Both the position numbers and the translations under genes were made by a program. Below, in pieces: positions 34,957 through 35,268 of a stretch of DNA of 64,000 bases. The notes under the pieces are model-generated. The model had not been told where the DNA came from, did no database searches, and saw only the letters and a program-made list of their open reading frames with translations. The stretch comes from a virus. Lineage: Duplodnaviria > Caudoviricetes. The stretch is from positions 1,058 through 65,057 of the IMG/VR virus record IMGVR_UViG_3300037313_000492. One strand, written 5' to 3'. Positions within the stretch are counted from its first letter, which is position 1, and each line of letters starts with the position of its first letter.

Positions 34957-35024
34957 CGTCAGTGGCGCTCGGTGCGGTTACTTCGCTTATAATGAAAAAT
35001 ACCGCTTCGGATTATTCCCTGACG
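34957..35024 (+). ncRNA. Y-RNA-like repeat 1
   Basis: closing stem CGTCAG/CTGACG; conserved GTGGCG, GGTTACTTC and TTATTCCC; inner hairpin TTCG-CTTATAA-TGAA. Confidence 0.75.
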
Positions 35025-35043
35025 CTTGATCTTTCCCAATTTT

Positions 35044-35175
35044 TATCGGTGGCGTAGGTGACGGTTACTTCGCATGTGGAGCGAGTAGTTCTGGTTCGAA
35101 TCCAGACGGCCAACCTGTTGGCTGTAGTGTAATGGTAGCACGCTTAAAATAGCCGTTTCCGCTTGTTCCCCGATA
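35044..35175 (+). ncRNA. yrlA: YrlA-like Y RNA with a circularly permuted tRNA domain
   Basis: closing stem TATCGG/CCGATA; T-arm TCTGG-TTCGAAT-CCAGA (35090-106); acceptor-like stem CGGCCAA/TTGGCTG closed by CCTG; D-arm GTGT-AATGGTA-GCAC; upstream of rsr. Confidence 0.85.
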
Positions 35176-35181
35176 GAAGAT

Positions 35182-35268
35182 TTCCAGTGGCGTAGAAATC
35201 AGTTACTTCTGACTCATAATCGGACGGTCTAGGCACCGTAAACGACTGGTTTTGATTGTTCCCTGGAA
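35182..35268 (+). ncRNA. Y-RNA-like repeat 3
   Basis: closing stem TTCCAG/CTGGAA; conserved GTGGCG, AGTTACTTC and TTGTTCCC; inner TCTGA-CTCATAA-TCGGA and CGGT/ACCG hairpins. Confidence 0.78.

What the first reader, a model, noticed from the sequence alone, without database searches (positions are those of the whole stretch)
34957..35268. Three tandem Y-RNA-like RNAs, each presenting a different anticodon-like hairpin (UAU, GUG, CAU)
Seen: three units share GTGGCG...GTTACTTC...TT(G/A)TTCCC inside covarying closing stems (CGTCAG/CTGACG, TATCGG/CCGATA, TTCCAG/CTGGAA). Straight after the conserved element, each has a 4-5 bp stem with a 7-nt loop and U at loop position 2: CTTATAA (34986-92, UAU), ATGTGGA (35074-80, GUG) and CTCATAA (35213-19, CAU, a textbook tRNA-Met loop). 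Known: Rsr/Ro60 binds Y RNAs, and YrlA RNAs mimic the tRNA elbow but, as I recall, usually lack an anticodon arm. Inference: this could be a modular array of anticodon decoys held on Ro60. It might absorb host anticodon nucleases (VapC-type enzymes cut tRNA-fMet; PrrC/colicin-type ACNases cut other tRNAs) or recruit damaged tRNAs for repair or decay.
Basis: partly seen in the sequence, partly recalled or inferred. Interest (0 to 1): 0.92.

Follow-up and report, generated by a model that had tools for sequence, protein, structure and literature searches.

The report
Phage Y RNAs with anticodon-like hairpins
Just upstream of a soil phage's Ro60 (Rsr) gene lie three small partner "Y RNAs", a known kind of RNA, and each carries a hairpin shaped like a tRNA anticodon arm; I found this feature common across the phage family and saw no description of it in the papers I could read.

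Summary
Window 34957-35268 holds three tandem RNAs directly upstream of, and co-oriented with, a TROVE/Ro60 gene (35286-36593). Each has a covarying closing stem and a conserved Ro60-type handle (UGGCG(U/C)..., GUUACUUC, UU(G/A)UUCC). A 4-5 bp hairpin with a 7-nt loop follows (CUUAUAA, AUGUGGA, CUCAUAA).

A covariance model built from relatives finds only these three sites in the 64-kb window. It finds 269 sites in 91 related loci, all on the rsr strand.

The middle RNA is a complete, circularly permuted tRNA-like YrlA-type RNA. The outer two are minimal.

Among about 179 non-redundant units, about half have a heptaloop hairpin at this position. Those loops have tRNA-like statistics: U at position 2 in 80%, a purine at position 6 in 91%, and 27 different central triplets.

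The RNA class is known (Chen 2014; phage phiLo Ro60-Yrl-PNPase, 2025), and the hairpin sits where the published "V" stem-loop lies. Its anticodon-arm character was not described in the papers I could read.

The decoy function against anticodon nucleases is untested. This scan has found phage Ro60 plus handle-RNA arrays before on other DNA.

Verdict: a new variant of a known kind, of moderate interest.

The parts
34957..35024 (+). Y RNA unit 1 (short, YrlB-like). It has closing stem 34957-62/35019-24, handle UGGCGCUC...GUUACUUC and AUUAUUCC, and helix 2.
   Evidence: R1 hit of 66 bits, E 9e-15; fold; sequence.
34981..34997 (+). Anticodon-arm-like hairpin of unit 1: UUCG/UGAA stem and loop CUUAUAA (34986-92).
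35044..35176 (+). Y RNA unit 2 (long, YrlA-type): a handle plus a complete circularly permuted tRNA-like domain.
   Evidence: R1 hit of 56.5 bits. Rfam YrlA 24.2 bits with a 12-nt insertion at the hairpin. ARAGORN miscalls 35042-35115 as tRNA-His.
35069..35085 (+). Anticodon-arm-like hairpin of unit 2: 5-bp stem UUCGC/GCGAG and loop AUGUGGA (35074-80). A 4-nt variable-loop-like linker UAGU follows (35086-89).
35090..35106 (+). T-arm mimic of unit 2 (UCUGG UUCGAAU CCAGA).
35107..35124 (+). Acceptor-stem mimic of unit 2: 7 bp CGGCCAA/UUGGCUG closed by the tetraloop CCUG, so there is no free CCA end.
35125..35142 (+). U8-A9 equivalent, D-arm mimic (GUGU AAUGGUA GCAC) and a G26 equivalent. The A-rich linker CUUAAAAUA then leads back to the handle.
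35182..35268 (+). Y RNA unit 3 (short, two distal hairpins). It has closing stem 35182-87/35263-68 and handle UGGCGUAG...GUUACUUC and AUUGUUCC.
   Evidence: R1 hit of 55.1 bits; fold.
35208..35224 (+). Anticodon-arm-like hairpin of unit 3: 5-bp stem UCUGA/UCGGA and loop CUCAUAA (35213-19). A second small hairpin follows at 35225-38.
35286..36593 (+). rsr, the Ro60 homologue (TROVE + vWA, 435 aa) and presumed protein partner of the three RNAs.
   Evidence: Pfam TROVE E 8e-18 and vWA_Ro60. The closest solved structure is Thermus phage phiLo Ro60 (9KOP/9L5Y), E 3e-32 over residues 10-435.

Best explanation
These are three partner RNAs (Y RNAs) of the phage's own Ro60/Rsr protein, probably made from one transcript with rsr and cut out of it. 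Each has a conserved 'handle': a closing stem, an internal loop bearing GGCG(U/A)AG on one strand and UUGUUCC on the other, and a second helix ending in the YUAY motif UUAC. By analogy with studied Y RNAs, this handle docks on the outside of the Ro60 ring. Beyond the handle sits a variable distal module. In all three RNAs this module begins with a hairpin of anticodon-arm dimensions: a 4-5 bp stem and a 7-nt loop with U at loop position 2 and a purine at position 6. In the middle RNA, a 4-nt variable-loop mimic, a T arm, a loop-closed acceptor stem and a D arm follow. The result is a whole tRNA, circularly permuted, with the Ro60 handle inserted between the D and anticodon arms. I infer that the anticodon-arm mimic is a selected, facultative module of this phage-associated Y RNA clade. 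It completes the tRNA mimicry already known for YrlA and presents a variable triplet on a conserved U-turn loop. I also infer that the particles act by engaging host tRNA- or RNA-handling proteins. Host PNPase is the only partner shown for a related phage Ro60. Shown here: the sequence anatomy, the covariation, family membership and the loop statistics. Inferred: Ro60 binding, processing, and any partner or role of the loop.
For: Identity: the TROVE gene abuts the array. R1 finds 213 units in 72 IMG/VR rsr loci plus two GenBank phages, and 56 more in 19 genome contigs. All 269 are on the rsr strand, and about 67 of the 72 IMG/VR loci have at least one unit. The handle motif resembles Chen's GNCGAAN0-1G and YUAY motifs and the CGAA bulge needed for phiLo Ro60 binding. 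The window Rsr matches phiLo Ro60 at E 3e-32. That protein binds two upstream Y-like RNAs and host PNPase (PMC12135203).

Hairpin: the MFE folds of all three window units show the heptaloop. Of 179 non-redundant units read have a heptaloop hairpin at this position and 65 of those have U at position 2 plus a purine at position 6. In the ungapped 17-mer alignment, loop position 1 is a pyrimidine in 80%, position 2 is U in 80.5%, position 6 is a purine in 90.8% and position 7 is A in 71%.

An objective spacing test used greedy patterns anchored on ACUUC. With X=A, 20 of 28 in-unit matches have a 7-nt loop, against 3-5 of about 42 background matches. Searches give similar results. RNAfold reproduces the heptaloop in 14 of 20 sampled units.

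In long units the hairpin is followed by a 4-5 nt (A/U)GGUC-type linker and then the T arm. That is the tRNA 27-65 order, not a class II variable arm. G at loop position 6 follows G at position 5 in 12/23 loops, against 3/64 otherwise. UAA ends 42/87 loops. Both resemble real anticodon loops. The 5' strand of the stem is always the conserved (C)UUC or UACUU of the handle, so the loops evolved in place and are not pasted tRNA pieces.
Against: There are no transcript, processing or binding data for this phage (no RNA run is listed). About half of family units have another loop size or no hairpin, so the module is dispensable for the family. My loop tallies were made by eye after the script machine failed. 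Six of 20 sampled units fold differently in the MFE structure. Several 'anticodons' begin with A (ACA, ACU, AUA, ACC), which is rare in real tRNAs. The commonest loop motif, GCUAA, also occurs in the 15-nt V loop of a canonical bacterial YrlA, so it may be a family motif and not a mimic of tRNA-Ser. A subclass of UUGG-containing loops occurs with 5 to 8 nt and is probably a different module. Sequence alone cannot say which helix stacks under the D arm, this hairpin or the handle as in Salmonella YrlA.
Confidence: 0.7

Rival explanations
1. One reading: the array is a set of Ro60-held anticodon decoys, inhibitors or sensors. These would absorb, block or report host anticodon nucleases (PrrC, RloC, colicin E5/D-like, VapC, PARIS-type and others), or bring cleaved tRNAs to repair or decay.
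For: The loops obey anticodon-loop rules, and the triplets differ between units and between related phages. Many mimic ANN-decoding and GUN/Arg-type loops of the kinds I recall as nuclease targets (from memory, not tested). Published comparative work places Ro60 with a tRNA-like partner in RNA-repair systems (PMC7824862). The Salmonella rsr-yrlBA-rtcBA operon responds to cleaved tRNAs (PMC7790460, abstract).
Against: There is no functional evidence. I found no RtcB, RNA ligase, kinase/phosphatase or nuclease-inhibitor gene in this phage. A stoichiometric decoy would have to compete with abundant tRNAs. Half of the units lack the loop, and some triplets do not correspond to normal tRNAs.
Confidence: 0.15
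2. The hairpin is a relic or a structural cap. Y RNAs of this type arose from tRNA (dimeric-tRNA model), and the anticodon arm survives only as a stable U-turn hairpin that closes the distal end. The central triplet would have no sequence-specific role.
For: The central triplet is highly variable (27 kinds among 65). The module is often replaced by other hairpins or lost. The dimeric-tRNA origin model is published. CcrColossus unit 4 still encodes ACCA after its acceptor strand, and one unit of L004 keeps an anticodon-like hairpin after the D arm.
Against: Positions 2, 6 and 7 and the coupling of positions 5 and 6 are kept, although handle stems have diverged completely. A few loops (GCUAA, GUUAA) recur on different stems and in different registers, which argues that the triplet is not neutral.
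Confidence: 0.3
3. The heptaloops are RNA-RNA recognition loops (YUNR/U-turn kissing loops) that guide the Ro60 particle, and perhaps PNPase, to complementary RNA targets.
For: A U-turn heptaloop presents 3-5 stacked bases for pairing. The exposed triplet varies between units, as expected for guides.
Against: No complementary target was sought or found. Three to five bases give little specificity. The coupling of positions 5 and 6 looks like tRNA rules and not guide rules.
Confidence: 0.08
4. Unit 2, and similar long units, is a real permuted or split tRNA gene that yields a decoding tRNA-His after processing.
For: ARAGORN calls a tRNA-His. All tRNA arms are present. M. smegmatis YrlA is cut by RNase P and receives CCA. 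The acceptor-loop bases could give G-1 and C73.
Against: The ARAGORN acceptor stem pairs at only 3 of 7 positions. No Rfam tRNA match reaches the gathering score in the window. The acceptor mimic is closed by a 4-nt loop with no CCA. The D-anticodon junction is interrupted by about 60 nt of handle.
Confidence: 0.03

Closest known systems
YrlA / YrlB, the bacterial and phage Y RNAs encoded next to rsr (Chen et al. 2014, PMC4201824; Rfam RF02553; structure in Wang et al. 2018, bioRxiv 312249)
   Same: They lie next to rsr on the same strand. They share a 5' GNCGAA-type Rsr motif in a bulged terminal stem and the YUAY motif. Unit 2 has the T arm, loop-closed acceptor stem and D arm in the same permuted order. 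A 'V' stem-loop upstream of the T arm is described for many YrlAs. Short companions (YrlB) occur. YrlA relatives were reported in 22 phages.
   Different: These RNAs score far below the Rfam threshold (24 vs 69 bits; none over threshold in 20 related loci). Here the V-position hairpin has anticodon-arm dimensions and loop rules and is followed by a class I-type variable loop. In Salmonella YrlA the handle helix itself takes the place of the anticodon stem and there is no anticodon loop. Arrays here hold up to about ten units and turn over quickly.
Thermus phage phiLo Ro60 with Yrl1/Yrl2 and host PNPase (NAR 2025, PMC12135203; PDB 9KOP, 9L5Y)
   Same: It is the closest solved relative of the window's Rsr (E 3e-32). 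It is phage-encoded, with tandem Y-like RNAs directly upstream that have a stem-bulge-stem handle carrying a CGAA-type motif.
   Different: That paper does not mention tRNA-like or anticodon-like modules (0 occurrences). PNPase binding and attenuation were shown only for that system and were not tested here.
Deinococcus radiodurans Yrn1 (Rsr-Y RNA-PNPase, RYPER)
   Same: It is a Y RNA that tethers Rsr to PNPase. Chen et al. 2014 modelled a potential 'anticodon arm' with a 5-bp stem in it.
   Different: The Yrn1 loop has 6 nt, its arms are arranged differently, and the authors consider it an independent lineage.
tRNA anticodon stem-loop
   Same: It has a 5-bp stem and a 7-nt loop, with pyrimidine-U at loop positions 1-2, purine-A at positions 6-7, and G37 mostly after G36. 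In long units it is followed by an (A/U)GGUC variable loop and a T arm.
   Different: The 5' strand of the stem comes from the Ro60 handle and not from the D arm. There is no free acceptor end. Some triplets start with A. The RNAs are not detected as tRNA by Rfam in the window.

Membership tests
Ro60/Rsr-associated Y RNA (YrlA/YrlB type) | Encoded within a few kb of a Ro60/TROVE gene, on the same strand. | tested here: met
   The array ends 18 nt before the rsr ATG. All 269 family hits are on the rsr strand.
Ro60/Rsr-associated Y RNA (YrlA/YrlB type) | The 5' and 3' ends pair into a stem that carries the Ro-binding motif (GNCGAAN0-1G or CGAA in a bulge). | tested here: met
   Closing stem plus internal loop covary. 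Units 2 and 3 have GGCGUAG (one mismatch to GNCGAAG) and unit 1 has the more deviant GGCGCUC. Exact GGCGAAG occurs in relatives.
Ro60/Rsr-associated Y RNA (YrlA/YrlB type) | Bound by the Ro60/Rsr protein. | not testable with these tools
   Only inferred, from the phiLo Ro60-Yrl complex and Chen et al. 2014.
YrlA (Rfam RF02553) | A tRNA-like domain with T arm, loop-closed acceptor stem and D arm in that order. | tested here: met
   Unit 2 only. Units 1 and 3 lack it.
YrlA (Rfam RF02553) | Score at or above Rfam's gathering threshold (69 bits). | tested here: not met
   24.2 bits for unit 2. No YrlA match over threshold in 20 related loci.
YrlA (Rfam RF02553) | Conserved YUAY that begins the V region. 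| tested here: met
   UUAC is present in all three units and nearly invariant in the family.
tRNA gene | A cloverleaf with paired free 5'/3' acceptor ends, detected by tRNA models. | tested here: not met
   No RF00005 hit in the window at the gathering score. The ARAGORN call has 3/7 acceptor pairs. The true acceptor mimic is closed by a loop.
Anticodon stem-loop mimic | A 5-bp stem and a 7-nt loop with U at loop position 2 and a purine at position 6. | tested here: met
   All three units meet it, though unit 1 has only 4 standard pairs.
Anticodon-nuclease decoy | Bound or cleaved by an anticodon nuclease, and protects the phage. | not testable with these tools
   No data.

The most novel reading that the evidence does not exclude
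Phage Ro60 particles carry interchangeable anticodon-arm mimics, with one triplet per RNA and several RNAs per array. Each particle would bind, inhibit or report a particular anticodon-reading host protein, such as a tRNA-cleaving defence nuclease. On this reading the arrays are a fast-evolving counter-defence repertoire.
Probability: 0.15. Interest if true: 0.85.

Novelty: new variant of a known kind. Interest (0 to 1): 0.45.

Why it matters
Y RNAs next to phage and bacterial Ro60 genes, and their tRNA mimicry, have been known since 2014, but what the tRNA-like part binds is still open. In this large phage-associated clade the mimicry often extends to a rule-abiding anticodon arm with a variable triplet, including in minimal RNAs that have no elbow. 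That narrows the search for partners to proteins or RNAs that read anticodon loops. It also gives a concrete test in cultured phages that carry such arrays (CcrColossus, Xanthomonas phages). There is a practical point too. Gene finders and GenBank records call parts of these RNAs tRNAs: tRNA-His here, tRNA-Gln in CcrColossus and tRNA-Asn in Olaya. This inflates phage tRNA counts.

Tried and rejected
- **Rfam, gathering threshold.** The only match in the window is an unrelated DUF3800-VIII RNA. YrlA appears only at E-value level.
- **Promoter and terminator scan of 34500-37000.** Nothing convincing lies upstream of unit 1. By eye there is only a weak TTGATA-N17-TTAACT.
- **Script machine.** It was lost, so the planned automated hairpin census and shuffles could not be run. 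I replaced them with reading alignments by eye, anchored regex spacing tests and RNAfold sampling. The X=T regex class was ambiguous because of alternative U/A pairings and a greedy matcher, and I did not use it.
- **Sequencing runs.** No RNA holder is listed, only soil and rhizosphere DNA metagenomes. I therefore did not lay reads.
- **Search for canonical YrlA in 151 genomes of one class.** Nearly all sub-threshold hits were dimeric tRNAs and only one was over threshold. I cannot say how common anticodon-like V hairpins are in classical YrlA.
- **Literature.** The Chen 2014 supplements and the Sim & Wolin reviews are not held.
- **Rejected readings.** A real tRNA-His gene, a class II variable arm (the 4-5 nt GGUC-type linker after the hairpin argues against it), and a terminator or attenuator hairpin (no U tract).
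- **Not applicable.** Complex prediction does not accept RNA partners.

Full report
**What is there.** Reading window 34700-35600 confirms every motif and coordinate of the finding. Three units lie head to tail at 34957-35024, 35044-35176 and 35182-35268. An ORF starts at 35286 whose product has a TROVE domain (E 8e-18) and a Ro60-type vWA domain. Its closest solved relative is the Ro60 of Thermus phage phiLo (9KOP/9L5Y, E 3e-32 over residues 10-435).

The genome is a single 65-kb virus record, apparently from a soil metagenome. It has tail, ejection and replication genes. I found no RNA-repair, PNPase or CCA-adding genes among its larger ORFs.

**Anatomy of a unit.** Each unit has:
- a 6-bp closing stem that differs completely between units;
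- an unpaired U;
- GG paired with CC;
- an asymmetric internal loop carrying (C/U)G(U/A)AG on the 5' side and G-YUUGUU on the 3' side;
- a 5-9 bp second helix;
- the motif UUACUUC.

RNAfold gives this fold for all three window units, with a 7-nt loop hairpin immediately after UUAC.

Unit 2 continues with:
- a 4-nt linker (UAGU);
- a T arm (35090-35106, loop UUCGAAU);
- a 7-bp acceptor-like stem closed by CCUG (35107-24);
- UA;
- a D arm with GG in its loop (35127-41);
- G;
- an A-rich linker back to the handle.

Every tRNA element is therefore present, circularly permuted, with the handle inserted between the D and anticodon arms. ARAGORN calls 35042-35115 a tRNA-His, but its acceptor stem pairs at only 3 of 7 positions. 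Rfam finds no tRNA in the window at its threshold. Rfam's YrlA model aligns to unit 2 at 24.2 bits (gathering score 69; E 0.008 for 601 nt). It treats the 'GUG' hairpin as a 12-nt insertion between the YUAY motif and the T arm.

**Relatives.** The Rsr protein retrieved 72 IMG/VR loci and 19 genome contigs, some on Mb-sized bacterial chromosomes. BLAST found arrays in two GenBank phages:
- Caulobacter phage CcrColossus has 8 units upstream of gp139, and one is annotated tRNA-Gln.
- Xanthomonas phage Olaya has 5 units, and ARAGORN calls one tRNA-Asn.

I aligned 40 short units and wrote the handle structure onto the alignment:
- 89% of cells pair.
- 199 cells change on both sides.
- 0 of 500 shuffles reach this.
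- Slid controls pair at 40-55%.

The closing stem had been used to pick the sequences. Helix 2 had not, and it is 86% paired with compensatory changes at all 9 pairs.

The covariance model R1 then found 213 units in the window plus 74 loci (the 72 IMG/VR loci and the two GenBank phage loci), and 56 units in the 19 genome contigs. All 269 are on the rsr strand, and in the window only the three units are hit. About 67 of the 72 IMG/VR loci have at least one unit, and four of the five without lack upstream sequence. Arrays hold 1 to about 10 units. Some sit inside real tRNA clusters.

**Is the anticodon-like hairpin general?** I extracted the 48 nt after helix 2 for 180 non-redundant units and classified 179 of them by eye, because the script machine failed; one was a within-locus duplicate.
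- 87 (49%) have a stem of at least 3 bp that starts in or next to the conserved CUUC, with a 7-nt loop.
- 65 (36%) also have U at loop position 2 and a purine at position 6.
- The rest have loops of 3-6 or 8-11 nt, other structures, or run directly into the T arm.

The 87 17-mers align without gaps:

| Loop position | Residue | Share |
|---|---|---|
| 1 | pyrimidine | 80% |
| 2 | U | 80.5% |
| 5 | U | 56% |
| 6 | purine | 90.8% |
| 7 | A | 71% |

The stem shows 162 double-change cells, though it was selected for pairing.

As a check free of my judgement, I ran greedy patterns ACTTC-X-N{3,11}-X'-GA over all loci:
- For X=A, 20 of 28 in-unit matches have exactly 7 nt, against 3-5 of about 42 matches elsewhere.
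- For X=C, the figure is 4 of 6.
- For X=G, 12 of 18 have 7 or 9 nt, where 9 is the register with one more pair.

RNAfold reproduces the heptaloop in 14 of 20 sampled units and the handle fold in all 20.

**Why an anticodon arm and not only a 'V' arm.** Chen et al. 2014 already describe a less-conserved stem-loop 'V' upstream of the T arm. They equate it with the tRNA variable arm, with YUAY beginning it. In this clade's long units, a 4-5 nt linker of (A/U)GGUC type follows the hairpin, and then the T arm. That is the order and spacing of tRNA positions 27-65 in a class I tRNA.

The loops also follow anticodon-loop coupling. G at position 6 follows G at position 5 in 12 of 23 cases, against 3 of 64 otherwise, and 42 of 87 loops end in UAA. 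The 5' strand of the stem is always the conserved handle sequence ((C)UUC or UACUU), so these loops evolved in place.

The central triplets are diverse, with 27 kinds among the 65 loops. GCU occurs 13 times, GUU 8, UCU, UUG and CAU 4 each, and UGU and UGG 3 each. They differ between units of an array and between close relatives. Loci whose Rsr is 68-73% identical to the window's carry different numbers, orders and loops.

**Cautions.**
- Half the units lack the module.
- Some triplets start with A.
- A UUGG-containing loop class occurs at several loop sizes and is probably something else.
- The commonest motif, GCUAA, also appears in the 15-nt V loop of the one canonical bacterial YrlA I could retrieve above Rfam's threshold. 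It may be a family motif and not a tRNA-Ser mimic.
- Sequence cannot tell which helix stacks under the D arm. In the solved Salmonella YrlA the handle helix does, and there is no anticodon loop.

**Function.** The best-supported statement comes from homology. These RNAs bind the phage Rsr through the handle, and their distal modules engage other factors. For phage phiLo, two upstream Y-like RNAs bind Ro60 through a CGAA bulge and also bind host PNPase, forming RYPER-like complexes that attenuate PNPase. I infer that here the distal module is a tRNA mimic that includes the anticodon arm, and that it is kept by selection.

Three accounts of what reads the loop remain open: a protein that recognises anticodon loops (defence nucleases included), an RNA, or nothing sequence-specific. 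I put the nuclease-decoy idea at about 0.15.

**Novelty.** Known: phage Y RNAs beside rsr, tandem copies, tRNA mimicry and a V stem-loop (Chen 2014; Wang 2018; the 2025 phiLo paper). Earlier notes of this scan report phage Ro60 plus handle-RNA arrays on other genomes. In the papers I could search I did not find the following: the anticodon-arm character of the V-position hairpin, its presence on minimal RNAs without an elbow, and its loop statistics with a variable triplet. I rate this a new variant of a known kind, of moderate interest.

Noticed in passing
window 19456-19520 (+): There is a full-length match to the Rfam DUF3800-VIII RNA (65 bits, gathering score 40), about 550 nt upstream of the putative major capsid gene.
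   Followed up: no
window 32369-34925 (+): A YcaO cyclodehydratase (E 1e-66) and a TfuA-like protein (E 2e-38) are encoded directly upstream of the Y RNA array, among tail/ejection genes. This is an unusual pair for a phage.
   Followed up: no
L001 2501-2568 (NC_019406 109217-109284); window 35042-35115; L002 2004-2074: Parts of Y RNA units are annotated or predicted as tRNAs: tRNA-Gln in the CcrColossus record, and tRNA-His and tRNA-Asn by ARAGORN. Rfam's tRNA model also scores some units at 30-41 bits. Phage tRNA counts near rsr genes may therefore be inflated.
   Followed up: partly
L001 2496-2661 (CcrColossus unit 4): After the acceptor 3' strand the DNA encodes ACCA, then a spacer hairpin, then the acceptor 5' strand and the D arm. 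This layout resembles a dimeric tRNA transcript. It fits the published dimeric-tRNA origin model and allows for RNase P/CCA processing as in M. smegmatis YrlA.
   Followed up: no
L004 2617-2748: This unit has no hairpin at the V position. Instead it has an anticodon-like hairpin (CGGA CUUAGCA UCCG) after the D arm, which is the native tRNA position.
   Followed up: no
many loci, e.g. L032 1517-1533, L028 2831-2847, L071 2691-2707, L010 near 2905: A recurrent UUGG-containing loop (UUUGGAU, UUUUGGU, UUUGGUU, UUGGU) caps many short units, with loop sizes of 5 to 8 nt. It is probably a distinct distal module.
   Followed up: no
L023 1916-1932, L008 2844-2860, L011 2917-2933: The heptaloop CCGCUAA, with C instead of U at loop position 2, recurs on three different stems. 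GCUAA also occurs in the V loop of a canonical YrlA (L100 1501-1632, minus strand).
   Followed up: partly
L059 and L069: Y RNA arrays and rsr sit inside clusters of real tRNA genes (ARAGORN; one of the 10 in L059, tRNA-Thr at 5115-5188, is a Y RNA unit). L069 has both a real tRNA-Asn(GUU) and a Y RNA hairpin with GUU.
   Followed up: partly
window 39106-44505 (+): A 1799-aa polyvalent protein with an ART-PolyVal ADP-ribosyltransferase domain (E 8e-22) lies downstream of rsr.
   Followed up: no
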